Positions 25,380-59,199 of a DNA stretch of 64,000 nt are shown here, piece after piece (the first letter of the stretch is position 1; every line of letters begins with the position of its first letter). The notes under the pieces were generated by a model. That model saw only the letters and a list, made by a program, of their open reading frames with translations. It searched no databases and was not told the origin of the DNA. Source of the DNA: Schmidtea nova (taxonomy: Eukaryota). The DNA is taken from contig CM097884.1 in the NCBI GenBank assembly GCA_044892505.1, positions 49,848,001 to 49,912,000 of the forward strand. The letters run 5' to 3'. The position numbers were made by a program, and so were the translations under genes.

Positions 25380-28300
25380 TGGCCTGCCGAACTTTGATTT
25401 GAACTTCGATTCGGACCAAAGTTCAAACACTTCGGAAACTTCGGACTTCGGCAATAGACCCTGTACGATCCAAATAGTGAAATTTTGCTTGAGCGATAAT
25501 AAATTATTATTGTTCCGTGATTATATACATTAAAATTAATGGCGACACGCAAACAATGAAAGTAAATAAAATCTTAGTTGTTGTTGTTCATTTTTCTTTA
25601 CTATCGATTTTCCTTTCTACGGCTATGTCATACGAACAGTGACAAGTCTAGCCTAGCCGTGGCTGTGTCGCTGTGTACACAATAGCCGTTCATGTTCATG
25701 CATCTCTATTCTCTACACTATAGCAGCCCTATACATCAATCTCCGACTACCCTTAGCATAATCTCGATTGATTCGAGCCACGATAATGGGGGGGCAGGCG
25801 CTTGAATAAGCATGGCTTGCGAGGCTGAGGCTACTGTAATACCACAATCAATTACCGATCGCAATCTAATAGGCCTAATAATAATTTTACTCTGTCCGAA
25901 ATTTGTTGCTTGGGCACTATTAGACTTGACTACTGTCAAGAGAGAAATACCACATAATCTACACATTTAAATTAATGTTGAGCACATTTAAATTTATTAT
26001 GTCATCTATCGTCTCTGTATGTCGACTCTCCAATCTTATTGCATGCCTGATGGAAGCAGCACAAGATGCCACGCGCGTGTATGCAGTTCAACTGAGTGCA
26101 TATGTCAATGTCATGCACGATGATGTTCGTATACCGTACCTATCGACTTTATCGACAATAATACTTATTATAAAATTATATATAAATAATTGTGTCATTT
26201 TTCTGTCATAAAATTGTGTGTCATAAATGAATGATTTATTCATTAGGTAAAATATTAGACTGAGCAGAACTGCCAGTTGAGCATCCGATTCACTTTCCAC
26301 ATCATCACATGCGAAAATCTCCATAGCTCCATACCCCTCCCCAGTGTACATAATATATATAAAAGCCCATCAAATTTGAAATCGAAATTTTTAAATATAT
26401 TTCTTCAACAAAATTAATAAATTAGATTTAAATATTAAAAAATTAAATTAAATAAATATGGCTAATGCTATGAGAAGTAAAATTTGGAATTTCTTTGAAA
26501 TCAACGCTGTGGATGAATCTTTTGCTAACTGTGGGACATGTAGAATGAAAATGAAACGTGGCGGCAAGGATCCAAGATCATACGGAACAACAACATTAAT
26601 CAACCACCTACGTTCTAAACATCCGGACAAGTACAAAGAATATTCACAGGCGTGTGATTCTGCAAAGAAACGACAAGCTGAAGAGGAAGAAAATCAACTC
26701 AATGCCGCAGCTAAGAAGCCAAAGCTACAAACTCTGGATGCATGTATTGAACGTACACGTCCATTTGAATCGGGCCATCCTCGTCAGATCCTCATAACGA
26801 AACTAATTGGTGAGATGATAGCCTTGGATAGTCAGCCATTTTCGATTGTCAGTGACGAAGGATTCCGACGTGTTCTGCATCAATTGGAGCCCAGATACGT
26901 CATTCCAGACGAGACTTATTTCTCAAGAACAATCATACCGGACATGTTTGCTGCAGTGAAGTCGAAAGTCAAGAATCTCATCGGAGATGCCAAACGTCTG
27001 TGCTTCACGAGTGATGTGTGGACAACCACCAACAGCCTAAATGGATTCCTCTCTTTGACAGCACACTGGATCGACAACAATTGGGAACGCAAATTTGTGG
27101 TGCTGGCACTTCGAGGAATCAATGGACATCACACCGGTAAGCTGATTGGAGATACCATATTGGAATTGTTGAATGAATGGGACATTGATGCAGGCAGACG
27201 TGGAACCTTCGTTCGCGATAACGGGTCAAGCATGGTGAAGGCCGCTAGTGTTGCAGGCTTATCAGATCTAGGCTGCTACATACACACGATTCAGTTAGTG
27301 GTGGGTGCAGGATTAAAGAAGACGCAAAAGGCTGTCATTGACGCAGTTGCAGCTTCCCGCAACATTGTAACCCACTTCCGGCATTTACCATTAGCCAATG
27401 ATCGACTGGAAGAGATTCAAAAATCTTTTCAGCCGGATGCTGCCGGCAACCCATATCCCGTCCACCGCCTGATACAAGATGTACAGACAAGGTGGAACTC
27501 CACGTTTTATATGTTGGAACGTTTGATCGAACAGAGAAAAGCAATAGCTCTCTACAGCCAAGACGACGTCACCAATCTGACAAACAATCAGTGGAACTTA
27601 ATCGAAAGGGTCGTGTCGACATTGCGTCCATTTGAAGAGGAAACGCGGAATGCTAGTTTGTCAACTGCAACAAGAGGAATGATTATTCCAAGTGTGCGTG
27701 TACTTCAGGCAGTTTTGACGAGACCAGCAAAGGAGGGTGTCGACCCTCAGGGTGACGACCTCGGCATTCAAACAATGCGTGCTGAAATGCTTGCGGATCT
27801 CAGCCGCAGGTATGCTAACGTTGAAAATAATAAGTTGTGCGTGTTATCTACTGCTTTGGATCCAGTGTACAAGCTTCGTCTCTTTAACGCGGAAACTGCT
27901 GCCACTGCAAAACAATGGCTTCTGGATGCAATTAATGCTGTAACGTCGACGGACAACTCGCGTGATGAAGTGCCAGCAGGCCCAACACCTTTCACATCAT
28001 CTTCATCAGCCACATCTGCTTTGGATAGCTACTACGACGACATGCTTGGAGCTACACAATCCAACTCTACAGATTCCGGTAATCTCCAACAACAGCTCGA
28101 TGCATATTTAACGGAAGCGTGCAACCAACGACACTCGCCTCCAAAAGATCCAATAGAATATTGGAAATCAAGGCAATACACCTATCCTCAACTTGCACTG
28201 GTCGCCAAACAATTCTGTGCTTCTCCTCCTTCCAGCATGGATAGTGAAAGAACCTTCAGTTGGCTGGTCTTATATGCGATGACCGTCGATCAAACTTAAC

Positions 28301-40134: not shown

Positions 40135-41359
40135 TGTTGGGCTAGCTAAACAGAGGAAAGAGTAAAATAAACCTATAATAATTGAAACAAAAAGAGAAAA
40201 TATAAGATAAGAAAGGGGAATATTAAATTTAAAAGAAAAAGGGTAATATAAATAAAATATAGATGAATTACTGGTAAATTAAATATAAAAATAGATAAAT
40301 TGAGGAGATTTCCAAAATTAACCGGCATAAGAGACACCTAAAAACAAATAAAATGTAAATATTGATAATTAAAACAAAATAAAAGTATTTTTTATTAAAT
40401 AATTGTTCTGAAAAGCCGGATCACCTAGAAAGAATCGAATCGAATCTAAAAAATAAAAATTAATTAAGTAAAGAAAATAATAATTGGACCTACGGTATAG
40501 ACAATCAAACCTGATTGGTCAAGCTAGACCAGACAGATCAGTATATATACTGATCATAAATTCAGTCAAAAAAAAGATAAGAATAACAAGTTTTAGACAA
40601 CAGACTAGTATTGACACAAACTGAGACATTTAGATCAATTGCGAATTTTACATTGAAACCTAGACATTGTCACATTTCAACGGAACTTGGACCCAATCAC
40701 CAGTTTTCGGATCAATAATCTTAAGTAATTTTAAGTTTGATTTATGTATATGCTTTATGTTGTTGGTTTCGGATTGGGTTAAAACAAAAATAGTAAATTA
40801 AACTAATAATTATTTTTAAACGCTCTAGGGATTCCTCCATCCAAAACCTCACATAAAATGCTTACATATCACACGAGCACCCTCGATCATTTCCCTGTAA
40901 TAATCGAGTTGGAAATGTGCAAGGTGTTTGAACAATGATGGGCAGGTGAGCTCTATTGCTAAAACTACTCCCCATTTATGTTCACGGGTTCGTCTCGCTG
41001 CCGATAGAAGGACTTACGCTTTAAGTTTAATCTATCCGCATCCATTATCTTTCATTTCAATTATTTCTTTAGCCCCCTTTTCTTTACAATATATTTCAAC
41101 TTTCAATTTTTCTTTCGGCCCCCTTCTTTACAATATCAACAAATAATCTTTAATCAATTACAATTTATTATCTCTTTAATGTTTCTATTGTTTATTAGAT
41201 TTATGTTAATCTTATTGTTAGTTCTAATGTATAGTTAATTTATTCTATATTTTCCTTTAAATCATTTTAAATTTTTAATAAATCACATTATTTTCTATAC
41301 TTTACCATAAAATAAATACAAACAAAAATTATTTAATAAGCAAAGAAATCACAAAATTT

Positions 41360-41950
41360 CTATTCAAAGTATTTGGTAATGTCTTCATCGGAAACTACAA
41401 AATCCGTGGTTAAATCAATTTCCGGAATGTTGTTTGATCGTTGTGCCAATTGCTGGAGAACTTGTTTCTTCCAGCGACGCTGACGTGCGCCCATCTTACT
41501 CTTCTTTTTCTTCTTGACCTCTGGATTTATCGGGTTCTTTGGTGTACTGGCTACTGTTGTTGCTTGAACCTGAGAGGGTTCCTCGGTGTTCGTTCCTTTT
41601 GTGCATCCTGCTTTCTCGTCAGCCCAATGTTGATAAGTGATTGGTCGAATGAGCTGGCTGAGCTCTTGAGTTAGATACGATGCCGTTACAGATTTTAGGC
41701 ATTTCTTTAATTCCATCTTCGTCGCGTCCAATTCCATTTGTAATTCGCTGTTAGCTCGCTGAGAGCGTTGAGTTTTTGTAATTTGCATTTTCATTTGTTC
41801 TGGACTGAACCAGCTTTTCTTTAGGTTGGAGATTATGCCATCGGCTTCTTTTATTTTTTCCGATTTTCGCAGCATTTCCTTTTCGAGGCTGCGAATTATC
41901 CTCCATGCTTTGTCTAACTCGGCTTGGTTAGTTGCTGTGTTGGCTGACAT
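41360..41950 (-). CDS. Unknown 196-aa coiled-coil protein with basic and acidic C-terminal motifs (ORF-B family, intact copy)
   Basis: Open GC-richer ORF. It aligns without gaps over 63 aa to 54911-55462, and with one gap to 57863-58231. ATG lies 3 nt after a TTTTAG acceptor. Confidence 0.75.
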   Translation of the reverse strand: MSANTATNQAELDKAWRIIRSLEKEMLRKSEKIKEADGIISNLKKSWFSPEQMKMQITKTQRSQRANSELQMELDATKMELKKCLKSVTASYLTQELSQLIRPITYQHWADEKAGCTKGTNTEEPSQVQATTVASTPKNPINPEVKKKKKSKMGARQRRWKKQVLQQLAQRSNNIPEIDLTTDFVVSDEDITKYFE

Positions 41951-42079
41951 TTTCTAAAATTCAGGATTGGTTTATTAACATGAAATTAGTAGTCTTGATT
42001 CGAACGATTCTCATACTTTTGACAGTTATTAATTGCAAATTCAGGAAGAGAAAATGATGTACCTATTACACTTTCAACA

Positions 42080-42216
42080 CTGTCGCTATGTACAGCGATC
42101 AGATACCTTTATTTCATAATACATTTTATTTATTCACGCCTGTGCTATATACAGCAATCAGGATAAGAAAATTATTAAAATAAACTAAGATCCACTGCCC
42201 TATGTACAGGGTTCAG
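42080..42216 (-). repeat. Three repeated stem-loops, each containing TGTAYATA on the minus strand
   Basis: Plus strand CTG-TCGCT-ATGTAC-AGCGA-TCAG, CCTG-TGCT-ATATAC-AGCA-ATCAGG and CTG-CCCT-ATGTAC-AGGG-TTCAG. Spacing 59 and 55 nt. Confidence 0.75.
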
Positions 42217-42677
42217 GATAAGCAATTATGTTTAATTATTTATCTGGAATGTTTGAACCTATAGCCTATTGCTGCTATGTTACTTGCGTAGTAGATCACT
42301 ACGTTATTAGAGTTATCGATTTTTATGTTGTTATTAAAATTATATTTTGTACAAATTCTTAACCGTGTATCTGCCGCTCTATGCCCACAAACCCCAGATG
42401 TGACAATCGAAAAATATAGCTTAACATTCTGTGAATCTCAAGGTAAAATCAGATTAATCAAATCACAGCTATATCTGTCTCAAACTACAATCAAACCTCA
42501 ACTTAACTATAAACTCAAAAATTTAAATCGATTATAAAATAAAACTTCAACTGGCTATACTATCCAGTGAAAACTAAGGTTAGAAATCAAAAATAAAATT
42601 CCTACCCTCGTCACGGCGCTTTACACCGGTCGGACGGCCTAACTGTACGGAGCAGTCGTTTCTACTCGGCACAGTAT

Positions 42678-42969
42678 GCCTCCATTTCACCGATTGCACG
42701 GTGATCGGAGCCCCTTAAATCGTACGTAATTTCTACTGTATCTACTGTATATAAATAATATATATATATTCGCCTCCTTCCACTGATTTCACAGTAGAAG
42801 AAGCTCGACCCAAAAATGGTTTATAAAAATATACTTCAACCTAATTGTTAATATCACAACATAATGTTGCCTCCTTCCACCGATTACACGATGGAAGAAG
42901 CTCAATAAAAGGTATATAATAGATATATGAAGTCGTCTCCTACCACTGATTGCACAGTGGAAGAAGCTT
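42678..42969 (-). repeat. Four ~35-bp palindromic repeats separated by unique AT-rich spacers
   Basis: Consensus CCTCCTTCCACYG-ATTNCA-CRGTGGAAGAAGCT. Loops start at 42693, 42786, 42883 and 42949. Stems show compensatory T-A to C-G changes. Confidence 0.8.
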
Positions 42970-45900
42970 AGTTCAATTCTATATTTAATAATAATTTAAA
43001 ACATACTCAAAATATTTTATTAAAATAACCAAAATGGTCAATGACAGAACTCATAGAAAAACAAATTTATAAAAACAAGAAAAACAAAATATTTATACCT
43101 TTTATGTTGTTCACAAAATTTGCATATACAAAACAAAATTTTCAATCACTGAAAAATTTTTCACCTATCACTTTATCTATATTTTTAACTGAATCTGGAT
43201 CAGTATTTATACTGACCAGATCAGATGTTGAACCAATCAGCGTGAAGCTGATTATCAGATCAGCACAAATAATAAATTACATTAAAAATCAAATCGATTG
43301 ATTTGCTTTAAATTGCTAATAATTTGTTGTTTTTGATTTTTAATATTCTGTAATTCTTTTTCTTTATTATTTCTTTATTTTGCCTTAAATACAATTAAAT
43401 ATCATTGTTTCTTTAACACTTTTACATTTTCTATTTACTTTCTTCTAAATTTTGATAGAAAATTGATATTCTTTATTACATTTTAATTCGTTTTTACTGA
43501 TATTTTCCATAATTATATTTATTTTAATTTATTCTTATTTTATTTCTTATTATTATTATTTTTTATGCTAAATGTGGATCAAATGGTGGATCCAACATTT
43601 ACATGATTTTGTCATAATAATTACCTTTGTCATATAAATTATATTTCGTATTAATAATTTTGTTCTCTTAATCTTTTTCATACAATTTTTATATGCTAAT
43701 TTTGTGGTGTTAATGAATTGAATTATAGAACTTAAATTATGAAATTTAGTGCGCCGACGGGGAGCAATAGGTTCCCAGGGTGTCACTCCGCATCGTGTGG
43801 TTTCAGAGGCTCCACACATGGTAGAGAAATCAATAAAATTAAATAAAATTCTACAGGGTTGCACATGGAACACAAAGAATCGAGGCAAAAATTTCCGTTG
43901 CGGATAGCAGTGAGTAGGTGAGGGCACTGATTTAAATAAATTATGGCAAACAAGAATAAACCCGAGAAGCGTTATATGTTAACAAATTTAAATCCGAGGC
44001 TGTTTTTATAGGTACATTAACCCTTCTGTATTATATATATAATTTACTTACAGGAAATTGGCGACCATAAATGAAAGATTTAACGGAACAAAGTATTAAT
44101 ATAATAGTAATTTTTAGCTAACAGGTACTCAAATTTTAATTATTTATATCTATTATCCAAAAATTTATTATAAAATTTAAATAATTTTATTTAGCAGTAT
44201 AAGGCCTGAAAACGTAAAAGAACCAAAGCGGAAGCAGAAGAGTAGGCCTATAGTGTGTCCTGGGACTAGGTCTGGTTCTAGGCGTAGACCAGGACCAGAA
44301 CCGGTTCTAATTCTAGACGAGATATCTCGACCAACGTAATTAATTAATTTATTCAATAAATTATTATGTTATTGTATTTTTTTAGTCCAAGTATAACGGA
44401 TGAATATGAAGATCCTCTCTCTTGACCAAACATTACTCCGGTCTCTCAGCGAAATTAAATAATTAATATATTCAATAAATTATTATTTTATTGTATCTTT
44501 TAAGAAGTATAAGAATTATTAACATGAGACGAAATGAACGATTATAATGCCACCATCTATATTGACCAACAGAGAAATCAAAAAGACAACGAGTGGCTTC
44601 AAAGTGAAAAATATTGCCTTAATTAATATAGTCTTTATATTTAGATTTAGTCGAAATTCTTCATGGAAAAAACAGATATAACGGTAAATAAATAACTTTC
44701 TTTAATAAATATATATAATTTACTTACAAAAAATTGGCGACCATAAATGAAAGATTTTACGGAATAGAGTAGTAATGGAATAGTAATTTTTAGCTAACTG
44801 GTACTCAAATTTTAATTATTTATATCTATTATTCAAAAATTTATTATAAAATTTAAATAATTTTATTTAGCAGTATAAGGCCTGAAAACGTAAAAGAACC
44901 AAAGCGGAAGCAGAAGAGTAGGCCAATAGTGTGTCCTGGGACTAGGCCTGGTTCTACGCATAGACCAGGACCAGAACCGGTTCTAATTCTAGACGAGGTA
45001 TCTCGACCAACGTAATTAATTTATTTATTCAATAAATTATTATGTTATTGTATTTTTTTAGTCCAAGTATAACGGATGAATATGAAGATCCGAACATTAC
45101 ACTGGTCTCTCAGCGAAAGTAAATAATTATTATCTTCAATAAATAATTATTTTTTTAATCTTTTTAGAAGCGAAAGAATTATTAACAAGAGGCAAAGTGA
45201 ACAGTTTATAATGCCGCCTTCTGAGACTCTGGCAGAGAAAAGACGAATGGCTTCAAAGTAAAAAATATTACATTTAATAATATTGTCTTTATATTTAGAT
45301 TTAGTTGAAATTCTTCATTGAAAATACAGATAGAACGGTAAATAAATAATTTTTTTTAATAAATATATATAAATTACTTACAGAAAATTGGCGAAACCAA
45401 ATGTAAGATTTAACGGAAAAGAGGGGAGATTTAATGGAATAGAGTAGTAATAGAATAGTAATTTTTAGCTAACTGGTACTCAAATTTTAATTATTTATAT
45501 CTATTATCCAAAAATTTATTATAAAATTTAAATAATTTTATTTAGCAGTATAAGGCCTGAAAACGTAAAAGAACCAAAGCGGAAGCAGAAGAGTAGGCCA
45601 ATAGTGTGTCCTGGGACTAGGCCTGGTTCTACGCATAGACCAGGACCAGAACCGGTTCTAATTCTAGACGAGGTATCTCGACCAACGTAATTAATTTATT
45701 TATTCAATAAATTATTATGTTATTGTATTTTTTTAGTCCAAGTATAACGGATGAATATGAAGATCCGAACATTACACTGGTCTCTCAGCGAAAGTAAATA
45801 ATTATTATCTTCAATAAATAATTATTTTTTTAATCTTTTTAGAAGCGAAAGAATTATTAACAAGAGGCAAAGTGAACAGTTTATAATGCCGCCTTCTGAG

Positions 45901-48900
45901 ACTCTGGCAGAGAAAAGACGAATGGCTTCAAAGTAAAAAATATTACATTTAATAATATTGTCTTTATATTTAGATTTAGTTGAAATTCTTCATTGAAAAT
46001 ACAGATAGAACGGTAAATAAATAATTTTTTTTAATAAATATATATAAATTACTTACAGAAAATTGGCGAAACCAAATGTAAGATTTAACGGAAAAGAGGG
46101 GAGATTTAATGGAATAGAGTAGTAATAGAATAGTAATTTTTAGCTAACTGGTACTCAAATTTTAATTATTTATATCTATTATCCAAAAATTTATTATAAA
46201 ATTTAAATAATTTTATTTAGCAGTATAAGGCCTGAAAACGTAAAAGAACCAAAGCGGAAGCAGAAGAGTAGGCCTATAGTGTGTCCTGGGACTAGGTCTG
46301 GTTCTAGGCGTAGACCAGGACCAGAACCGGTTCTAATTCTAGACGAGATATCTCGACCAACGTAATTAATTAATTTATTCAATAAATTATTATGTTATTG
46401 TATTTTTTTAGTCCAAGTATAACGGATGAATATGAAGATCCTCTCTCTTGACCAAACATTACTCCGGTCTCTCAGCGAAATTAAATAATTAATATATTCA
46501 ATAAATTATTATTTTATTGTATCTTTTAAGAAGTATAAGAATTATTAACATGAGACGAAATGAACGATTATAATGCCACCATCTATATTGACCAACAGAG
46601 AAATCAAAAAGACAACGAGTGGCTTCAAAGTGAAAAATATTGCCTTAATTAATATAGTCTTTATATTTAGATTTAGTCGAAATTCTTCATGGAAAAAACA
46701 GATATAACGGTAAATAAATAACTTTCTTTAATAAATATATATAATTTACTTACAAAAAATTGGCGACCATAAATGAAAGATTTTACGGAATAGAGTAGTA
46801 ATGGAATAGTAATTTTTAGCTAACTGGTACTCAAATTTTAATTATTTATATCTATTATTCAAAAATTTATTATAAAATTTAAATAATTTTATTTAGCAGT
46901 ATAAGGCCTGAAAACGTAAAAGAACCAAAGCGGAAGCAGAAGAGTAGGCCAATAGTGTGTCCTGGGACTAGGCCTGGTTCTACGCATAGACCAGGACCAG
47001 AACCGGTTCTAATTCTAGACGAGGTATCTCGACCAACGTAATTAATTTATTTATTCAATAAATTATTATGTTATTGTATTTTTTTAGTCCAAGTATAACG
47101 GATGAATATGAAGATCCGAACATTACACTGGTCTCTCAGCGAAAGTAAATAATTATTATCTTCAATAAATAATTATTTTTTTAATCTTTTTAGAAGCGAA
47201 AGAATTATTAACAAGAGGCAAAGTGAACAGTTTATAATGCCGCCTTCTGAGACTCTGGCAGAGAAAAGACGAATGGCTTCAAAGTAAAAAATATTACATT
47301 TAATAATATTGTCTTTATATTTAGATTTAGTTGAAATTCTTCATTGAAAATACAGATAGAACGGTAAATAAATAATTTTTTTTAATAAATATATATAAAT
47401 TACTTACAGAAAATTGGCGAAACCAAATGTAAGATTTAACGGAAAAGAGGGGAGATTTAATGGAATAGAGTAGTAATAGAATAGTAATTTTTAGCTAACT
47501 GGTACTCAAATTTTAATTATTTATATCTATTATCCAAAAATTTATTATAAAATTTAAATAATTTTATTTAGCAGTATAAGGCCTGAAAACGTAAAAGAAC
47601 CAAAGCGGAAGCAGAAGAGTAGGCCAATAGTGTGTCCTGGGACTAGGCCTGGTTCTACGCATAGACCAGGACCAGAACCGGTTCTAATTCTAGACGAGGT
47701 ATCTCGACCAACGTAATTAATTTATTTATTCAATAAATTATTATGTTATTGTATTTTTTTAGTCCAAGTATAACGGATGAATATGAAGATCCGAACATTA
47801 CACTGGTCTCTCAGCGAAAGTAAATAATTATTATCTTCAATAAATAATTATTTTTTTAATCTTTTTAGAAGCGAAAGAATTATTAACAAGAGGCAAAGTG
47901 AACAGTTTATAATGCCGCCTTCTGAGACTCTGGCAGAGAAAAGACGAATGGCTTCAAAGTAAAAAATATTACATTTAATAATATTGTCTTTATATTTAGA
48001 TTTAGTTGAAATTCTTCATTGAAAATACAGATAGAACGGTAAATAAATAATTTTTTTTAATAAATATATATAAATTACTTACAGAAAATTGGCGAAACCA
48101 AATGTAAGATTTAACGGAAAAGAGGGGAGATTTAATGGAATAGAGTAGTAATAGAATAGTAATTTTTAGCTAACTGGTACTCAAATTTTAATTATTTATA
48201 TCTATTATCCAAAAATTTATTATAAAATTTAAATAATTTTATTTAGCAGTATAAGGCCTGAAAACGTAAAAGAACCAAAGCGGAAGCAGAAGAGTAGGCC
48301 TATAGTGTGTCCTGGGACTAGGTCTGGTTCTAGGCGTAGACCAGGACCAGAACCGGTTCTAATTCTAGACGAGATATCTCGACCAACGTAATTAATTAAT
48401 TTATTCAATAAATTATTATGTTATTGTATTTTTTTAGTCCAAGTATAACGGATGAATATGAAGATCCTCTCTCTTGACCAAACATTACTCCGGTCTCTCA
48501 GCGAAATTAAATAATTAATATATTCAATAAATTATTATTTTATTGTATCTTTTAAGAAGTATAAGAATTATTAACATGAGACGAAATGAACGATTATAAT
48601 GCCACCATCTATATTGACCAACAGAGAAATCAAAAAGACAACGAGTGGCTTCAAAGTGAAAAATATTGCCTTAATTAATATAGTCTTTATATTTAGATTT
48701 AGTCGAAATTCTTCATGGAAAAAACAGATATAACGGTAAATAAATAACTTTCTTTAATAAATATATATAATTTACTTACAAAAAATTGGCGACCATAAAT
48801 GAAAGATTTTACGGAATAGAGTAGTAATGGAATAGTAATTTTTAGCTAACTGGTACTCAAATTTTAATTATTTATATCTATTATTCAAAAATTTATTATA

Positions 48901-50566
48901 AAATTTAAATAATTTTATTTAGCAGTATAAGGCCTGAAAACGTAAAAGAACCAAAGCGGAAGCAGAAGAGTAGGCCAATAGTGTGTCCTGGGACTAGGCC
49001 TGGTTCTACGCATAGACCAGGACCAGAACCGGTTCTAATTCTAGACGAGGTATCTCGACCAACGTAATTAATTTATTTATTCAATAAATTATTATGTTAT
49101 TGTATTTTTTTAGTCCAAGTATAACGGATGAATATGAAGATCCGAACATTACACTGGTCTCTCAGCGAAAGTAAATAATTATTATCTTCAATAAATAATT
49201 ATTTTTTTAATCTTTTTAGAAGCGAAAGAATTATTAACAAGAGGCAAAGTGAACAGTTTATAATGCCGCCTTCTGAGACTCTGGCAGAGAAAAGACGAAT
49301 GGCTTCAAAGTAAAAAATATTACATTTAATAATATTGTCTTTATATTTAGATTTATTTGAAATTCTTCATGGAAAAAACCGATAGAACGGTAAATAAATA
49401 ATTTTCCTTAATAAATATATATAATTTACTTACAAAAAATTGGCGACCATAAATGAAAGATTTAACGGAATAGAGTAGTAATAGAATAGTAATTTTTAGC
49501 TAACTGGTACTCAAATTTTAATTATTTATATCTATTATCCAAAAATTTATTATAAAATTTAAATAATTTTATTTAGCAGTATAAGGCCTGAAAACGTAAA
49601 AGAACCAAAGCGGAAGCAGAAGAGTAGGCCTATAGTGTGTCCTGGGACTAGGTCTGGTTCTAGGCGTAGACCAGGACCAGAACCGGTTCTAATTCTAGAC
49701 GAGATATCTCGACCAACGTAATTAATTAATTTATTCAATAAATTATTATGTTATTGTATTTTTTTAGTCCAAGTATAACGGATGAATATGAAGATCCTCT
49801 CTCTTGACCAAACATTACTCCGGTCTCTCAGCGAAATTAAATAATTAATATATTCAATAAATTATTATTTTATTGTATCTTTTAAGAAGTATAAGAATTA
49901 TTAACATGAGACGAAATGAACGATTATAATGCCACCATCTATAATGACCAACAGAGAAATCAAAAAGACAACGAGTGGCTTCAAAGTAAATAATATTGCC
50001 TTTAATAATATTGTCTTTATATTTAGATTTAGTCGAAATTCTTCATGGAAAAAACAAATAGAACGGTAAATAAATAATTTTCTTTAATAAATATATATAA
50101 TTTACTTACAAAAAATTGGCGACCATAAATGAAAGATTTAACGGAATAGAGTAGTAATGGAATAGTAATTTTTAGCTAACTGGTACTCAAATTTTAATTA
50201 TTTATATCTATTATCCAAAAATTTATTATAAAATTTAAATAATTTTATTTAGCAGTATAAGGCCTGAAAACGTAAAAGAACCAAAGCGGAAGCAGAAGAG
50301 TAGGCCTATAGTGTGTCCTGGGACTAGGCCTGGTTCTACGCATAGACCAGGACCAGAACCGGTTCTAATACTTGACGAGGTATCTCGAACAACATAATTT
50401 ATTTATTTATTCAATATATTATTATGTTATTGTATTTTTTAGTCCAAGTATAACGGATAGACGAAATGAACGATCTGGATGCCCCAATTTATGGGAAGAA
50501 CAAATGTAAGAATTTGTTAAAATTTATTATTGAATTTACTTTTTAATTTGAGTTTTTAATTTAAAT

Positions 50567-50655
50567 AATACTTTTAATATATTATTTTTAAATCATTTTG
50601 TAATTGTTTTTCAAACCATTACAAAATGATTTAAAAGTATAATATTAAAAGTATT
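50567..50655. repeat. Long AT-rich inverted repeat (arms about 37 bp)
   Basis: AATACTTTTAATAT...TTTTAAATCATTTTGTAAT / ATTACAAAATGATTTAAAA...ATATTAAAAGTATT. Confidence 0.8.
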
Positions 50656-50669
50656 TATATTATGAAATA

Positions 50670-51186
50670 TTCATTTTACTTTTTTTTTTGATAAAAAACA
50701 TTTATGTAATAGAATTATATATATGAAACAATTTACTTTATTCATTTTTTGATAAAAAACATTTATGAAATAGAATTATATATGAAACAATTTAATTTAT
50801 TCATTTTTTGATAAGAAACATTTATGAAATAGAATTATATATGAAACAATTTAATTTATTCATTTTTTGATAAGAAACATTTATGAAATAGAATTATATA
50901 TATGAAACAATTTACTTTATTCATTTTTTGATAATAAACATTTATGAAATAGAATTATTTTTGATAAAAAACATTTATGAAATAGAATTATATATGAAAC
51001 AATTTACTTTATTCATTTTTTGATAATAAACATTTATGAAATAGAATTATATATATGAAACAATTTACTTTATTCATTTTTTGATAAAAAACATTTATGA
51101 AATAGAATTATATATGAAACAATTTACTTTATTCATTTTTTGATAATAAACATTTATGAAATAGAATTATTTTTGATAAAAAACAT
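50670..51186. repeat. Minisatellite of 59-61 bp units (two 33-bp short units)
   Basis: TTTTTTGATAA(A/T)AAACATTTATGAAATAGAATTATATATGAAACAATTTACTTTATTCA, about 10 copies. Confidence 0.92.
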
Positions 51187-51329
51187 TAAAGAAATATTTT
51201 TTATGTAACAACATATTATTATTATTATTGATATAATTTATTTTTATTTTATTTATAATGTTATATATTGAAAATTTATTTAAATATTTATTTAAATTCA
51301 GGTTTAATCTACAAAAATTTTTGCAACAG

Positions 51330-51765
51330 TAGGTTCCATAATGATTGCCATGTCATTATGGAAAAATACTACTCGTTGACATATATTACTGTTACCCACC
51401 TCCTATGTCCCACCTGTAAACTTATCGAAATTTCCAGATATCTTGATTTCTTTAATAGGCACTGTAGCCATCTTTCGCAGTTTCAGCCTTCCAAGAAAAT
51501 TTTATGTAAGGAAATTTTTCCTAATTTTATTAATAACAACAACCAAATTATTCCTATAAATAACAATAATCTAAATAATAATCTAAATAATACAAATAAT
51601 CTAAATAATACAAATAATAATCATACAAATAATTTAAATAATATCAATAATACAAATAATACAAATAATACAAATAATTTAAATAATAATAAAAGAAAAC
51701 ATATTAAAATACCGGATTCAGTTCCTACTAAAATTCAAATAATAGATCTCACTGATGATGAATAA
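51330..51765 (+). CDS. Putative exon encoding a His/Cys motif, an Asn-rich tract and an IIDLTDDE tail
   Basis: Part of ORF 51268-51765. The acceptor TTTTTGCAACAG|T at 51329 is in phase 2 with the upstream 63-nt exon 50443-50505. Reads RFHNDC...LLCPTCK...HCSH, then N-rich repeats. Confidence 0.4.
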
Positions 51766-52959
51766 TTAGTCATCAGTGATGATGAAAATTTAAATAATAA
51801 TAATTTAAATAATATTAACCAAATAGGATATGGTGCCGTCGAGATCGTAAATGATCTAAATAATAATCATATAATTATTAAAATGGACGTTGAAAATTAA
51901 AATTTGAAATATATATAATAAATATATATAATTTACTTACAAAAAATTGGCGACCATAAATAAAAGATTTAACGGAATAGAGAAGTAATAGAATAGTAAT
52001 TTTTAGCTAACTGGTACTCAAATTTTAATTATTTATATCTATTATCCAAAAATTTATTATAAAATTTAAATAATTTTATTTAGCAGTATAAGGCCTGAAA
52101 ACGTAAAAGAACCAAAGCGGAAGCAAAGAGTAGGCCTATAGTGTGTCCTGGGACTAGGCCTGGTTCTAGGTATAGACCAGGACCAGAACCGGTTCTAATT
52201 CTAGACGAGGTATCTCGAACAACATAATTAATTTATTTATTCAATATATTATTATGTTATTGTAATTTTTAGTCCAAGTATAGCGGATGAATATGAAGAT
52301 CCTCTCTCTTGACCAAACATTACTCCGGTCTCTCAGCGAAATTAAATAATTAATATATTCAATAAATTATTATTTTATTGTATCTTTTAAGAAGTATAAG
52401 AATTATTAACATGAGACGAAATGAACGATTATAATGCCACCATCTATAATGACCAACAGAGAAATCAAAAAGACAACGAGTGGCTTCAAAGTAAAAAATA
52501 TTGCCTTTAATAATATTGTCTTTATATTTAGATTTAGTCGAAATTCTTCATGGAAAAAACAGATAGAACGGTAAATAAATAATTTTCCTTAATAAATATA
52601 TATAATTTACTTACAGAAAATTGGCGACCATAAATGAAAGATTTAACGCAATAGAGGGGAGATTTAACGGAAAAGAGTAGTAATATAATAATAATTTTTA
52701 GCTAACTGGTACTCAAATTTTAATTATTTATATCTATTATCGAAAATTTTATTATTAAATTTAAATATTTTTATTTAGTAATATAAGCCCTGATGACACG
52801 GACCTAATGAAACCTAATTATCCGGAGCCTGAACCGAAGTGTAAACGTTAGATTTATTCAATAAATTCTTTCAGAAATGTATCCAGTATTTATTTAAAAA
52901 GTATTCCAAATCACCATAATTTATTCAAAGATTTTATAAAAATTTAAACAAATGTTGCG

Positions 52960-53700
52960 ACAACCTTCAAATTTTTAATCAAACCATTTTATAGAAAATT
53001 AAAGTTTAAATTTACAATACTACAATAAAAATTCAATTAAGTTACTTTATATATGTTTGCAATGTAAAATTTAATTATTAATTGTATATGCAGCGGCGGA
53101 ACTACTGGACGCAGGACCCTGCGTTGCGGGGGGGCCTACCAGCTATAGGGGGTCCTCATATAAAAAAATTATACTCTCAATAATATTTATACTATAAAAC
53201 TCTTTTCCGCAGGTATAGTGGGCCCTAAAATATAAAACTTGGATAAAAAAAATGTCATCCATCGTATTAAAATATATTGTTCAAAAATTTATTTTTGTAT
53301 TGGAGTGCGTAGTTTACATTTAAACGAAAAGTTTTACCCTTTTTATTATTAACCTTTTTATTATCTATTTAATATGTGAAGCTTTATTTTTTTAAAAAAA
53401 AACATTCTTTTGCGGGGGGGCCCAAATTTTGAAGTTCCGCCACTGTGTATATGCAACTTAAAATTAATAACTTCTAATTTTGAATCAAACCATTTTATAG
53501 AAAATTAAAATTTATTTATACTCTATTACAATGAAAACTCAAAAATTACTTCATTTAGAAGAAAAACACAAAAATTAATAACAAAACACTTGTGCATCAC
53601 AAAATTCGACAAACCAATTTTCCAACCAAGCCATTTTGTAGAAAATTAATTTTTACACAAAATTTATTAGAATAAAAACTCAAAAAATGAACCCATTTTT
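52960..53700. repeat. ~143-bp tandem repeat, left part (resumes at 58600-58870)
   Basis: AATCAA(A/G)CCATTTTRTAGAAAATT recurs near 52977, 53484, 53626, 58669 and 58812. The period is 142-144 once the MITE is removed. Confidence 0.75.
53091..53445. mobile_element. hAT-type MITE (355 bp) with 8-bp TSD
   Basis: Termini CAGCGGCGGAACT / AGTTCCGCCACTG. TSD TGTATATG at 53083-53090 and 53446-53453. TTGCGGGGGGGCC subterminal motif at both ends. Confidence 0.95.
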
Positions 53701-54010: not shown

Positions 54011-54616
54011 TTGATGTCATGTGATTTCAATCAACCATTTTCCGTTCAGAGAGAAACGATGAAACAGGAAAAACTTTTGGATTCGCCATTAGTCTCGCCA
54101 CCCGCGACAAAGGAGGGTCATAAATCTCGAAGGAAGCGGCAGGCCCGATCTAGCCATCCGGTGATCAATTGTAATTATATGACCGAGATCCAAGGGGAGA
54201 AGGACGCTCCTCGACCAATCGCCGAGCTAGCGCGCAGACATTTGCGTCGATGGACACGACGGCACATGAACGTGGCCGCTAATGTTCCAGCCTGCACATT
54301 CCGAGTGCAATTGCGATGGGAGGGAGATGTAAATTGGCCGTCATCCTCTAGCCATACGGAGCAGAGACCCTCACGGTGGTTCTATCAATTCCTCGATGAA
54401 TCCGATCAACCACGATGGTTGTTAAGTTCAGGAGCTATGACCGGTCAATCGCTATATCAACTGGGATATCTGCTTCTGGACAGGCCTCGGTGTAGCGACA
54501 CTGGGGAAGTCCAATCCTACTCAAACACTCCCGGAAGCGTCACGTTGGATCCCCATCCGGAACCGAATGATCTCCGCTTGTGGGAGGTGTTCATACACCA
54601 AGGCAAGCTGAGCTAG
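54011..54616 (+). CDS. Unknown protein, ORF-A family (unit X2)
   Basis: 201-codon ORF downstream of CCAAT and a TATA-like run (53978-54000). RPSRWFYQFLDESDQPRWLLSS resembles the RPPF...DE...PRWLISS motif of 23537. The true start is uncertain. Confidence 0.5.
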   Translation: MMSCDFNQPFSVQRETMKQEKLLDSPLVSPPATKEGHKSRRKRQARSSHPVINCNYMTEIQGEKDAPRPIAELARRHLRRWTRRHMNVAANVPACTFRVQLRWEGDVNWPSSSSHTEQRPSRWFYQFLDESDQPRWLLSSGAMTGQSLYQLGYLLLDRPRCSDTGEVQSYSNTPGSVTLDPHPEPNDLRLWEVFIHQGKLS

Positions 54617-54910: not shown

Positions 54911-55462
54911 ATGAACGTGGACAACACTCGAAACTATAAACAGGAGGCTCGGGAGCACAAGGCTCGCTCCAAGGTCCTAGAGAGCCGCTTACATCAGTTA
55001 AGTGAGGAGCACCAACGCGTGAAGACGACATGGTTCAACTCCGAGAGGGTCAAGGCCATCCTACAGGCGAGATATCGCGCGGAACAGGCAGCCGAAGAGC
55101 AAGCCAGAGAAGTCGCAGCATTAAAATTGGAACTGACCAATTATCTAAAAACCTCGACGCAGGAATTCATAACCGAGCAGTTACGCCCAATGATCAGGGC
55201 AAGTACGTTCAATAAGTGGATAAAGACAATAGCAGTCACCACCAGTACTCAAACCGAAACGGAGACAACCGCAACAGCGACTACTGAGTCGATAATGATA
55301 ACTCCGGAAGGCTCTAAGAGGATTTAACGTCGAAATCGCCTCGGAGCAAAGAAACGTCGAGAGCGTCGAGCCTATGCCGAACGTCTGGGCATTGAGGTCG
55401 ATCTACTCAGTGGACTCTCCGAACAAGAACTATTAAACGTGATCCGGCCATCTGTTCTGTTA
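54911..55462 (+). pseudogene. ORF-B family coiled-coil protein (unit X2) with one internal TAA at 55325-55327
   Basis: ATG lies 2 nt after TACAG. The frame beyond the stop (RRNRLGAKKRRERR...IEVDL) matches the C-terminus of 41360-41950 (KSKMGARQRRWKK...PEIDL). Confidence 0.75.
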
Positions 55463-55786
55463 ATTTATAAAAAAATGTATTCTCATTGAATGACTTGACT
55501 TGTTTGCTTGCGGTATGTTTGAGAATTAAATGTAAAGTAAAACCGATTCATTTGAGGCTACAGACACTCTAAAAGTTAAGTTTACCCTAGGACAATAAGA
55601 GAGCGTATAATTGGGACCGAAAGAAATCCACAAACACTTTCTATCGGTAGTGGTGGACCCGTGAATAAACAAGGGAATAGTAGCCGCAAGGTTGCTCACC
55701 TGTCTTGTCATTTCACAACGTTGACACAGCACCAACATGATGAGTAGTTAGGGATACATCATGGGTGTCAGCGGGGGAATGTTTTT

Positions 55787-56400
55787 ATGTTGGCGAGATC
55801 ACCCTAACGTTTAACATCTTAATGATCTCAGTTGTCCAGCAAACCAACACACCAGCAACATTAACAAAATAGCACACAGAATAAACAAGACATTAATAAA
55901 TAACGAGAACATTTAGAAATAATAAGTTGAAAAAAAATATTTAGGAAATAATTATTATAGATGAGTATAATTAAAACAAAAATAAAATGAGAAATCAATA
56001 AAGAAATGATAAAAGTATAAAATTAATCAGAAATTAGAAAAATAACAAGAATTAGGAAATTAAATGAAATTATAAAAGGAAATAATATAATAACAAATAA
56101 AACAAATAATACGATAAAATAAAATAAAATAAAATAATTGCATGAATTGGCCAATAAAAGGCTAACTTGATTCTGATTGGCTGTCTGAGCGCCGAATTTA
56201 CTATGTAAGGAAGCGCTCAGGTTAGCTCCGCAAGGTCATTTTTTACTAGTCAGTTGTACCACTTTAAAGGTCAACTTTACTTTAGCTTAATATCACACTG
56301 CGTAGTAATTATTAGTCGAAGGAATAAGACGTTTACCACAACACTCGGGACACGTATCTGGAAAACACTGAATTCTATTTGGAAAATCGTTGTAAGTAAT
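55787..56400 (+). promoter_or_regulatory. LTR-like promoter module between units X2 and X3
   Basis: Preceded by purine tract AGCGGGGGAA (about 55770-55779). TGTTGG start, A-rich tract, CTGATTGG at 56173, GTAAGT donor at about 56392. Confidence 0.5.
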
Positions 56401-57201
56401 TGAATTTTATTTATCAATACATTTTTATGATTACATGCTTTCGTTCTAAATCTCAGTACTGGATAGATAATGCGAGAGTCGGGACAATCACGCAGATTGT
56501 CGGCTCTCCGGGGAGATCTCTCTGTGTTCCGTGTCTCGGCACGGGGCGGAGATAGGTATCTCCGTAAAGGCCTTTTTATTAGTGAATGAGTGACGAGGGG
56601 CGAATGTCGGGGAAACGGGTAGCAGATTCCAGAATTCCGTGCGTTATACATTATCCTAAAAGAGAACCGTATGAATGCCAATTATTGACGGCACAGAATA
56701 TAAATACTATTGCGTCACCCACGATGTTGAGGTAGTAGGACATTAAAAACAAATCCAACCCTTCCGTTAAACAATTTTCAACTGATATCCTAAATATTAG
56801 CTTAAAAAATTCCACCAAAATCAGGTTATTAAAACTGCCATTTTTGAGTTTTCCGATCAGAGAAATTTTTATTCAACCAACCTAAACCATTAGAACTTAA
56901 TTCGACTTAAAATTCCTCCCCAACACTCCGTACAATTATCGTATGAGTAGAAGCACAAGAATCGCTGTCATTTCAATATCGGATCGGGTCGGGTCGGGTA
57001 AAACTTTCAATAGGTTGTGCAGGTTATTAATGTGCACCATCTAAATACTATATTCAAATCCAATACTATACTATATCCAAATGATATATTCAGGTTCTAG
57101 AAATATTTTACACGGGTCAACAGTTTCGAGGTCCGAAAGGAGAGTCTCCCAAGGTTAACGCATGTCCAACCAATCCGGGGTATCATAACAACCATCTAGT
57201 C

Positions 57202-57570
57202 ATGACAATGCCACTCAAGGAGATCCCAACCGAGTTGGCGCAGGAGATATTCACCGAACATCGTCAAGAGTTTGAAAGAACCGGAGCTGTCCCATCTTTT
57301 AGTCTATTCCGGGACAGCCCCGACGAAATAATATGGCATGGCAGTAAGAAGTGGCCGATCGATGAAGATCGACCTTACTCGCCCAGTTTGGCGAAATATT
57401 TTGTCGAAACCCCCACTGAAATACTTGGCCGGTTTCAGATTTACTTCAGCGGACGCTTCGTATTTGCTCCCGCTCCATCTCCCAATCCAACCGACTCTCC
57501 TATCAGTTCCTCAGCGTTGAGTGAGGATATCGAGGATTCCAGTGAAGTTAAATTAGATAACAATTATTGA
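57202..57570 (+). CDS. Unknown 122-aa protein, ORF-A family (unit X3)
   Basis: PSFSLFRDSPDEIIWHGSKKWPI aligns without gaps to PPFLIWSSGIDEIWWNGCPRWLI at 23537. Acidic, Pro/Ser-rich tail. Confidence 0.6.
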   Translation: MTMPLKEIPTELAQEIFTEHRQEFERTGAVPSFSLFRDSPDEIIWHGSKKWPIDEDRPYSPSLAKYFVETPTEILGRFQIYFSGRFVFAPAPSPNPTDSPISSSALSEDIEDSSEVKLDNNY

Positions 57571-57862
57571 TCCTGAATGTGCGTATCATCGATGTTTAGT
57601 AGTATAATATATCTTTAGTTTCGTTAACTATTCTTGTTCTGTGTTGTCTAAATTTGGTTTTATAAAGTAATAAATAGAGTAAATTGTAGTGTAGAAATTT
57701 GCAGAGTAGACCCGGACGAGGTATAGATGTCTGAAGTAAGTAAAGAGAAGTGAGCATAGAGTCGTTAAGGGCAAATAAGATGAAGTGTTGCATTCACTGG
57801 GAGTCATTGTTGTCAACCCGTAAATCGTGAGAGAAATTTAGAAGATTATCACATAGGAAGCA

Positions 57863-58231
57863 ATGTCAACCGAGGAAAAGGCACTATGGCGGTTGAAACG
57901 GAGACTCATCAGCATCGAGAGCAGTTATTTCACTCATGGCGGAATGAAGGCGGTCAAAGACAATTTACTAAGAGCAACCTAGGTCATCCAGGACCAACAG
58001 AGAGAATTGGAAGCGGTACAAATTGTACTGAAAAATTGTCGAAAAATTGTCATAACAGAGAAGTTCATTGCGGATAATTTGAAGGAATTAATTCTTCCTG
58101 TGACCCTGGAGAAATGGTTTCCCGCGCGAAATAAATCGGGAAGTACAGTCCTCAAGGCGACTAAAACAACCTCGCCGACCAAAAGGAAAAGACACACTCA
58201 CAGCGACGCAACCAGACTAAGCTTAGGTTGA
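57863..58231 (+). pseudogene. ORF-B family coiled-coil protein (unit X3) with one internal TAG at 57980-57982
   Basis: MSTEEKALWRLKRRLISIESSYFTHGGMKAVKDNLLRAT*VIQDQQRELEAVQIVLKNC...LKELILPVTLEKW. ATG lies 6 nt after CATAG. Confidence 0.7.
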
Positions 58232-59199
58232 CAAACGAACTAAATAAAGCTGCAGCCGAGATCGATTCAACCACAAATGCAACCAATGGGATCGATAATT
58301 CACTGTGGAATGTAAATTAATGTTATGAGAGTGAATGCGTGTATAATTGAGGATCCTTGTTGTTCTTCTTTGATAAAGTTCTATCATAGATTGATAGTAG
58401 TAGTGATTTCAGGGAAAATTGAATTTTATTGAGTAGGCTAATAAAGTGTTGTAATGCCGAGTACCTAAGACAATTTTTTTTTGAATATGGATTTAAGGGA
58501 CAAGAAAAGAGACTGAAAAAGACCACCCGGAAAGAGTGACCAGAGAAGGGTGAGGGGAAAGAGAATAAGACCTTCTATCGGCCAGTTAGAACCCGAACTA
58601 AAATTAATAACAAAAAATTAATAACAAAACACGTGTGTAACACGAAAAACGACAACTTTTAAATTTAGAATCAAGCGATTTTATAGAAATTTAAATTTTA
58701 TCTATACTTTATTACAATGAAAACTCAAAAAATTATTTTAAATAGCTAAAACTTACAAAATTAATAACAAAACACATGTACATCACAAAATACGACAATT
58801 TTCAGATTTTTAATCAAGCCATCTTGTAAACAATAAAATTCTGTCTATCTTTTGTTTCACTAAAAACTCAATCGGGCCGGTTAATCGACTCGAAAAAGGC
58901 ATTTAAGGTTTTGTAGTAGGAGGCTATCTTCTGTCTGCGCCAATATCCGCAAATGGGCATAATATATAATCGCTCGGGTTTACGTAGTACACGTTATTAC
59001 ATAATCATTGTAATTAAGTATATTTAATGAAACTCAATAATTATGTAATTACACATATAATTACGTAATTTTATATATTTGTTTAAGTTAAGTGAATTTT
59101 TGTTTTAATTAACTGGAATACTTGTTTTAATTAGATGACTTTTTTGTTTTAATTTAATAAAAATATGAAAATTTCATTTTAAATTTAATAAAAAATATG

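What the first reader, a model, noticed from the sequence alone, without database searches (positions are those of the whole stretch)
55630..55850. Conserved non-coding 3' segment downstream of every ORF-B
X2 55637-55848 (+) and X1 about 41016-40761 (-) align over about 220 nt (CTTCTATCGG, ACCCGTGAA, GCTCACCTG, AGGGA, TTTTATGT, CCCTA..CGTTTAA, AAACCAACA). X3 has the start of it (TAAGACCTTCTATCGGC...GAACCCG, 58566-58595) and is then cut off. It is better conserved at DNA level than the ORFs, which suggests a cis-acting replication, packaging or processing signal. On the opposite strand both long copies show TAG|GG...CAG|GTGAG, like an antisense exon (40829-40945; 55803-55700).
Basis: partly seen in the sequence, partly recalled or inferred. 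Interest (0 to 1): 0.7.

Follow-up and report, generated by a model that had tools for sequence, protein, structure and literature searches.

The report
Folded RNA tail of giant retroelements
The segment is the last ~250 bases of the long terminal repeats of giant retrovirus-like jumping genes, where very different families keep the same predicted RNA fold right beside the tRNA primer site, so it is likely an undescribed signal for starting reverse transcription rather than a partner of ORF-B or an antisense exon.

Summary
The core motif pattern has 3,947 genomic matches against 0 for the control; 13 of 30 unselected copies lack ORF-B. 30 of 30 loci picked by their tRNA-Pro primer site carry it just upstream. 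Across 29 copies, five helices covary on the sense strand (208 double changes against 74±9 shuffled). A further predicted helix joins the LTR end to the spacer before the primer site, and GAACCCG can pair with the primer's T arm like the retroviral PAS. Families lacking RT keep the fold. Best reading: a U5 platform for primer handling and initiation of reverse transcription (inferred, 0.45); packaging is the main rival. The antisense exon is not supported; no RNA data were available. No Rfam match. The scan noted the same kind of RNA earlier in another genome (e1-8146185).

The parts
55627..55857 (+). X2 copy of the structured RNA, running to the LTR end (..CCAGCA, 55857)
   Evidence: CM hit 139.5 bits (X2 is in the training set); 128 genomic copies of this end are followed by the tRNA-Pro primer site
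55637..55647 (+). Hairpin P1, loop UUCUAUC (predicted)
   Evidence: helix 1; closing C-G replaced by U-A in L316, L324, L344
55655..55661 (+). PAS-like motif (GGACCCG here, GAACCCG in 15 of 29), complementary to bases 49-55 of the genome's tRNA-Pro gene
   Evidence: function inferred
55669..55708 (+). Hairpin P2: covarying outer stem, internal loop GARU/CACCUG, inner stem capped by GNRA in 22 of 29
55719..55773 (+). Hairpin P3/P4: covarying stems around an A-rich ..CCAA / G internal loop; apical loop with UAGGG
55783..55857 (+). P5: UUUUAUG plus G/U-rich arm predicted to pair with the C/A-rich LTR end and, in 5' LTRs, the spacer before the primer site; CCCUA (55802-55806) lies in its loop
53687..55857 (+). 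X2: 3' 2.17 kb of a ~3.2-kb LTR (first ~1 kb missing, no target duplication); holds ORF-A 54059-54616 and ORF-B from 54911 (stops early at 55327 in this copy)
40758..41021 (-). X1 copy of the structured RNA (P1 41011-41001, GAACCCG 40991-40985, CTCACCTG 40950-40943, TTTTATGT 40858-40851)
40758..43597 (-). X1: complete solo LTR, TGTTGG..CAACA, target duplication TAAA; CCAAT-like 43240 and TATA-like 43212; ORF-B 41950-41360
55870..58596 (+). X3: LTR of an older third family, starting next to the end of X2, cut after the PAS-like motif (58589-58595)
5171..5397 (-). X4: remote fourth copy, end of a family whose full elements have ~4.3-kb LTRs and the same primer site
   Evidence: CM 28.6 bits, E 4.8e-6

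Best explanation
The segment is the last ~250 nt of the LTR of Burro-like giant Ty3/gypsy retroelements and is predicted to fold, in RNA made from the 5' LTR, into a four-part structure that likely sets up the host tRNA-Pro primer and the start of reverse transcription. Shown: LTR-end position, tRNA-Pro primer site directly downstream in 5' LTRs, covarying sense-strand helices P2-P4, retention in families without ORF-B and without their own RT. Predicted: P5 closes the LTR end onto the spacer before the primer site, so the first bases to be copied sit in a helix; P2 and P3/P4 loop out most of the distance between GAACCCG and the primer site. Inferred: once the tRNA 3' end anneals and its T stem opens, GAACCCG pairs with the freed T arm as the retroviral PAS does, and the near-invariant internal loops bind Gag/NC or RT supplied in trans by autonomous families. 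That the region is U5 rather than R is inferred, as no transcript ends could be mapped.
For: LTR identity: 5 of 5 X1-family pairs 99.75-100% identical; target duplications (14 of 20; 11 of 20). Primer site matches the genome's tRNA-Pro(TGG) genes. 30 of 30 primer-site loci carry the RNA upstream on the same strand. Covariation: 87.1% of 1,026 cells paired vs 70.1±0.8 shuffled, 208 double changes vs 73.8±8.7, slid controls 33-39%. P5 cognate duplex -13.3 vs -10.8 kcal/mol, 0 of 20,000 permutations, 28 copies. UUUAUG pairs with LTR end/spacer at P>=0.85 in 9 of 11 scored junction types, including the remote family with its longer spacer. PAS-like motif keeps 7 of 7 pairs with the T arm (wobble allowed) in 22 of 29; HIV anti-PAS is tRNA 48-55 (PMC3675109, passages); Ty1 boxes 0/1/2.1 pair with the T and D arms (PMC5454406, passages). 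No RT/RH/IN hit in 5 of 5 X1-family and 4 of 4 X4-family elements, present in 3 of 3 X2-family.
Against: All families with a sampled primer site use the same tRNA, so PAS pairing cannot covary. A position-free test of complementarity to the tRNA was not significant (65 of 400 shuffled tRNAs gave two or more shared sites); the 0.5% chance figure holds only for the T-arm target chosen from the literature and assumes equal base use. PAS function is itself disputed in HIV (PMC3185550, passages). The invariant loops UUCUAUC, GARU/CACCUG and CCAA are not explained by this model. Packaging or export would predict the same position and the same retention in RT-less families. The structure was read from the alignment it was scored on, relatedness is not controlled, and 13 of 42 clusters were dropped. 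L330 has a primer site but lacks P1-P2.
Confidence: 0.45

Rival explanations
1. The fold is mainly the packaging/dimerisation signal recognised by Gag on unspliced genomic RNA.
For: Same position in the genomic leader; invariant internal loops suit protein binding; kept by RT-less families that still encode gag-env-protease; Ty1's 5' domain combines these roles (PMC5454406, passages).
Against: P5 ties the fold physically to the LTR end and primer spacer and the PAS-like motif fits the primer. Self-complementary kissing loops were not searched for.
Confidence: 0.25
2. It controls expression of the long, upstream-ORF-laden leader: an IRES, a splicing regulator or a nuclear-export element, possibly bound by the basic ORF-B protein.
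For: The TATA-like box lies ~0.4 kb into the X1 and X2 LTRs, so ORF-A/ORF-B would precede gag; possible pseudoknot UAGGG:CCCUA, lost on both sides together in X4; CUCACCUG resembles the U1 5' end (recalled).
Against: No long open frame follows the CCCUA (at most 56 codons in 6 of 6) and 4-30 ATGs precede the first long ORF after the primer site in 4 of 4 with one; no sense CAGGTRAG partner in 5 LTRs and 3 leader stretches; pseudoknot cognate test negative (4,001 of 20,000); present without ORF-B.
Confidence: 0.13
3. It is a 3'-end element (poly(A) or stability/xrRNA-like) acting at the 3' LTR or on ORF-B mRNA.
For: Lies downstream of ORF-B and of AATAAA/ATTAAA hexamers; contains U/GU-rich tracts.
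Against: The predicted junction helix needs the spacer found only after 5' LTRs; hexamers are frequent in these AT-rich LTRs.
Confidence: 0.07
4. It is a self-cleaving ribozyme of a new class.
For: Invariant loop bases inside covarying stems; P1 loop loosely resembles the L3 loop of HDV-like ribozymes (recalled).
Against: No Rfam match; by eye no HDV P1/P2 nesting or conserved catalytic junction in A2; cleavage here would sever the template for strong-stop DNA.
Confidence: 0.05
5. The conservation is that of an antisense spliced exon.
For: CTCAC (antisense GTGAG) is kept even in X4; CCTA/CCTG (antisense YAG|G) found in 23 of 29; antisense spliced LTR transcripts exist in deltaretroviruses (recalled).
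Against: Sense-strand wobble bias 75:27, GNRA loops, z-scores; length 89-119 nt, phases 9/7/7; acceptor absent in X4; splice sites cannot explain 23 of 36 pairs with double changes.
Confidence: 0.05

Closest known systems
Burro / GYPSM1 giant gypsy-like LTR retrotransposons of planarians (PMC6431247, passages)
   Same: 25-30 kb elements; gag with CCHC knuckle, env-like fusion domain in frame before protease, PR-RT-RH-IN, ankyrins, TRAF/MATH and RING accessory ORFs.
   Different: The passages read describe no LTR-encoded ORFs, no LTR RNA structure, no primer site and no RT-less gag-env-PR families. No Burro sequence was available for direct comparison; the original paper was not held.
Retroviral U5 primer activation signal and U5/leader stems (HIV-1 PAS, RSV U5-TpsiC; PMC3675109, PMC3185550, PMC1865047, passages)
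   Same: U5-side motif complementary to the primer's T arm; helices flanking the primer site.
   Different: The motif lies ~200-240 nt upstream of the primer site, across two large hairpins; function untested; different tRNA.
Ty1 TIPIRT domain (PMC5454406, passages)
   Same: Structured 5' domain of an LTR retrotransposon with boxes complementary to the primer's T/D arms.
   Different: Ty1's boxes and pseudoknot lie largely downstream of the primer site inside GAG; here the fold is wholly inside the LTR, with no sequence likeness tested.
Retrozymes, Cassandra, Helenus/Ajax (PMC4918200 listing; PMC10886601 abstract)
   Same: Conserved RNA motif carried in LTRs of often non-autonomous elements.
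   Different: No hammerhead, 5S or tRNA match in Rfam; elements here are giant and coding.

Membership tests
LTR of a Ty3/gypsy element | Paired direct repeats with TG..CA ends, target duplication, primer site after the 5' copy | tested here: met
LTR of a Ty3/gypsy element | PR-RT-RH-IN order in the internal region | tested here: met
   X2 family 3 of 3; X1 and X4 families have PR but no RT/RH/IN hit
Burro-like elements | Giant size, env in frame between gag and protease, ankyrin / MATH-TRAF / RING / BIR cargo | tested here: met
   PF24664, zf-CCHC, Ank, MATH, zf-TRAF, RING; env 78-82% identical between X1 and X2 families; the BIR-like stretch was read by eye only
Burro-like elements | Sequence relationship to named Burro1-4 and a planarian host | not testable with these tools
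   No named Burro or planarian protein among the 120 listed RT relatives; host inferred from architecture only
Retroviral PAS | U5-side motif complementary to the primer T arm | tested here: met
   7 of 7 pairs in 22 of 29 copies
Retroviral PAS | Covaries with primer identity and stimulates initiation | not testable with these tools
   all sampled primer sites are tRNA-Pro; no outside loci found
Known ribozyme / IRES / small-RNA families | Match to an Rfam model | tested here: not met
IGR-type IRES | Open frame starting at a pseudoknot | tested here: not met
Antisense exon | Conserved acceptor and donor; spliced reads | tested here: inconclusive
   acceptor lost in X4; no RNA run listed

The most novel reading that the evidence does not exclude
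The fold is a new class of functional RNA module (a protein-gated switch or a catalytic RNA) that lets RT-less, ORF-swapping giant endogenous viruses of flatworms share one replication machinery, with the LTR-encoded basic ORF-B protein acting on it in trans like Rev/Rex/Rec.
Probability: 0.1. Interest if true: 0.8.

Novelty: new variant of a known kind. Interest (0 to 1): 0.4.

Why it matters
Burro-like elements are thousands strong in their host genomes and their cis-acting signals were not described in the papers I could search. A 250-nt, covariation-backed RNA shared by autonomous and RT-less families gives a short, testable handle on how these elements prime and share reverse transcription, and a sensitive marker (model R1) for finding and classifying their LTRs, which otherwise align poorly between families. 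It would extend the PAS/U5 paradigm from retroviruses to an env-bearing metavirus lineage. It is not a new kind of system, and the function is untested.

Tried and rejected
Rfam: nothing relevant (one sR2 hit at E 0.24 elsewhere; none). RNA data: no RNA holder listed; the two runs laid were contigs of unknown kind from one study and showed no joint at the would-be exon, which is no evidence on splicing. ACCAAC as a tRNA D-arm partner: rejected, this genome's tRNA-Pro does not match. CCCUAG as D-arm partner: possible but lost in X4. Pseudoknot UAGGG:CCCUA: cognate test negative, only co-loss supports it. Anti-primer-site pairing of AUCGG: P>=0.6 in 5 of 12 junction types only, and the U-A variant of P1 argues for the hairpin. 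X4 as a free SINE-like repeat: suggested by variable 5' extents and 0 of 17 target duplications at a wrongly placed 5' end, rejected when shared upstream sequence and 4 of 4 LTR pairs with primer sites were found; a first primer-site pattern missed them because the spacer is longer. Single-copy folding of the 185-200-nt core is not significant (z -1.38, -1.35). One search used a mis-indexed structure and is void (redone). Outside the genome: 4 metagenome pattern hits score 8.5-9.5 bits, i.e. chance; none in viral contigs. ORF-B: no homologue, no Pfam above cut-off, atlas hits below 0.9. Literature searches listed no paper describing this RNA; subscription papers, Repbase and the supplements of the original Burro paper could not be seen.

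Full report
1. Observation. The X1 and X2 segments align with the listed motifs and X3 stops after GAACCCG. The two-motif pattern has 3,947 matches in the 1.25-Gb genome and none for its reversed control. Between divergent copies the segment is 68% identical (shuffled 50%) while ORF-B DNA is 48% (shuffled 47%). ORF-B is nevertheless conserved as protein: synonymous sites are saturated and pN is 0.15-0.32. In contigs of two public runs of unknown kind the summed depth over 40898-40996 is about 100,000 against mostly a few thousand elsewhere in X1, as expected if many families share that hairpin.

2. What the segment is part of. The best genomic copies of the X1 segment come in same-strand pairs 12-44 kb apart. 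Five pairs examined are 2.8-kb direct repeats, 99.75-100% identical, around a giant polyprotein. They begin TGTTGG, end in CA, are flanked by 4-bp duplications, and the first copy is followed by a short spacer and a primer binding site. That site is complementary to the 3' end of the genome's own tRNA-Pro(TGG) genes. Window X1 (43597-40758) is a solo LTR with duplication TAAA. The X2 end is followed by the same primer site in 128 places; two of three X2-family elements followed up showed 3.2-3.3-kb LTR pairs, 99.7-100% identical, with duplications; of 20 X2 relatives 15 have a full LTR head, 14 of them with a duplication. In 20 copies picked by position, 11 had a duplication (two at unusual lengths) and 1 a primer site. 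Window X2 lacks its first ~1 kb and X3 is an older family clipped at both ends. Internal regions carry a CCHC gag, a viral fusion domain (PF24664) before the protease, ankyrins, TRAF/MATH and RING ORFs, and in the X2 family PR-RT-RH-IN. This is the architecture described for planarian Burro elements (PMC6431247, passages); the host and the link to named Burro families are inferred, not tested.

3. Not tied to ORF-B. 17 of the first 30 genomic copies have an ORF-B hit within 1.5 kb, 13 do not; L158/L159 and L166/L167 are 1.4-kb LTR pairs with a primer site and no ORF-B. A covariance model found a fourth copy in the window at 5397-5213. It belongs to a remote, abundant family whose full elements have ~4.3-kb LTR pairs and the same primer site in 4 of 4 cases. 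Conversely, 30 of 30 loci chosen by primer site plus LTR end, not by the segment, carry it just upstream; one of them lacks the 5' half. No RT, RNase H or integrase was found in 5 of 5 X1-family and 4 of 4 X4-family elements, against 3 of 3 X2-family elements with all three.

4. Structure. From 170 copies in 42 clusters I aligned 29 by sequence alone, dropping 10 truncated or deleted and 3 redundant clusters. RNAalifold predicted 17 pairs, 13 with double changes. For the 36-pair structure, 87.1% of cells pair (shuffled 70.1±0.8), with 208 double changes (73.8±8.7); slid controls give 33-39%. Supported helices: P2 outer (5 of 6 pairs with double changes), P2 inner (3 of 7, GNRA tip in 22 of 29), P3 (7 of 8), P4 (5 of 6). 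P1's closing pair switches C-G to U-A in three further copies. The G/U-rich stretch after UUUUAUG pairs better with its own LTR end than with others (-13.3 vs -10.8 kcal/mol, 0 of 20,000 permutations, median rank 6.5 of 28). UUUAUG is predicted to pair with the LTR-terminal CA and the spacer in 9 of 11 scored junction types, a helix that only RNA from a 5' LTR can form. The sense strand is favoured: G-U 75 vs A-C 27 (49 vs 27 without one near-invariant pair), mean z -3.2 vs -1.4, lower in 11 of 12 (25 shuffles each). Caveats: the structure was read from the same alignment, relatedness is not controlled, and 18 bases were fixed by the search pattern; in 23 X3-family loci chosen by ORF-B DNA, 19 had the P1 motif and 13-17 each of the other motifs.

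5. How it most likely works. The unpaired GAACCCG is complementary to bases 49-55 of the tRNA-Pro gene (T stem and loop), 7 of 7 pairs in 22 of 29 copies with wobble, overlapping the 48-55 anti-PAS of HIV's primer (PMC3675109). With P5 abutting the primer site and RT-less families keeping the fold, I infer a U5 platform for primer handling and initiation, served in trans (0.45). Against: the position-free test is not significant, the PAS is debated (PMC3185550), no covariation test is possible with one tRNA, and the invariant loops remain unexplained. Packaging (0.25), leader/export control (0.13), 3'-end element (0.07), ribozyme (0.05) and antisense exon (0.05) are the rivals; their evidence is in the fields above.

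6. Known and new. It works like retroviral U5/PAS regions and Ty1's TIPIRT domain but matches no Rfam family. Six literature searches listed no description of it; I saw passages of PMC6431247, PMC8532177, PMC11410931, PMC3185550, PMC1865047, PMC3675109, PMC5454406, a reference line of PMC4600332 and the abstract of PMC10886601; the original Burro paper and its supplements were not held. Verdict: a real, covariation-supported LTR-end RNA of Burro-like elements, a new variant of a known kind, function inferred; interest 0.4.

Noticed in passing
window 41950-41360 (-), 54911-55327 (+), 54059-54616 (+), 57085-57570 (+): LTR-encoded ORFs. ORF-B (coiled coil, R/K-rich motif, acidic tail) is under purifying selection across families and has no homologue or family; ORF-A is absent from X1.
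   Followed up: partly
L081-L099, L287-L289, L295-L306: Young families (LTR pairs 99.4-100% identical) that encode gag and protease (and env in the X1 family) but give no RT/RNase H/integrase hit; also ~12-kb elements with 1.4-kb ORF-less LTRs.
   Followed up: partly
window 42966-42770 (-): Three near-identical ~30-nt hairpins with GNRA-like tips and one or two degenerate ones further on, inside the X1 LTR downstream of the TATA-like box.
   Followed up: no
L053, L061, L074 leaders: Tandem ~70-nt units after the primer site, each repeating its 3' half.
   Followed up: no
window 40538-40580 (+): A second copy of the X1 CCAAT/TATA-like promoter stretch, inverted, just outside X1.
   Followed up: no
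window 53469-53683 and 58606-58871: The X2-X3 block is clipped on both sides by the same AT-rich repeat.
   Followed up: no
G000:C3 ~50.55 Mb (L001, L051, L110): An inverted, 99.97-100% identical second copy of the X1-X3 region about 0.65 Mb away: recent duplication or assembly artefact.
   Followed up: no
L206 (G000:C1 ~459.6 Mb): tRNA-Pro(TGG) genes in a 308-bp tandem array; 1,112 genomic matches to the tRNA 3'-end pattern, some of them primer sites.
   Followed up: no
window 44000-52850; 10509-12081 (-); 26452-28299 (+): A ~675-bp tandem array; an adenosylhomocysteinase gene; a hAT transposase with BED finger.
   Followed up: no
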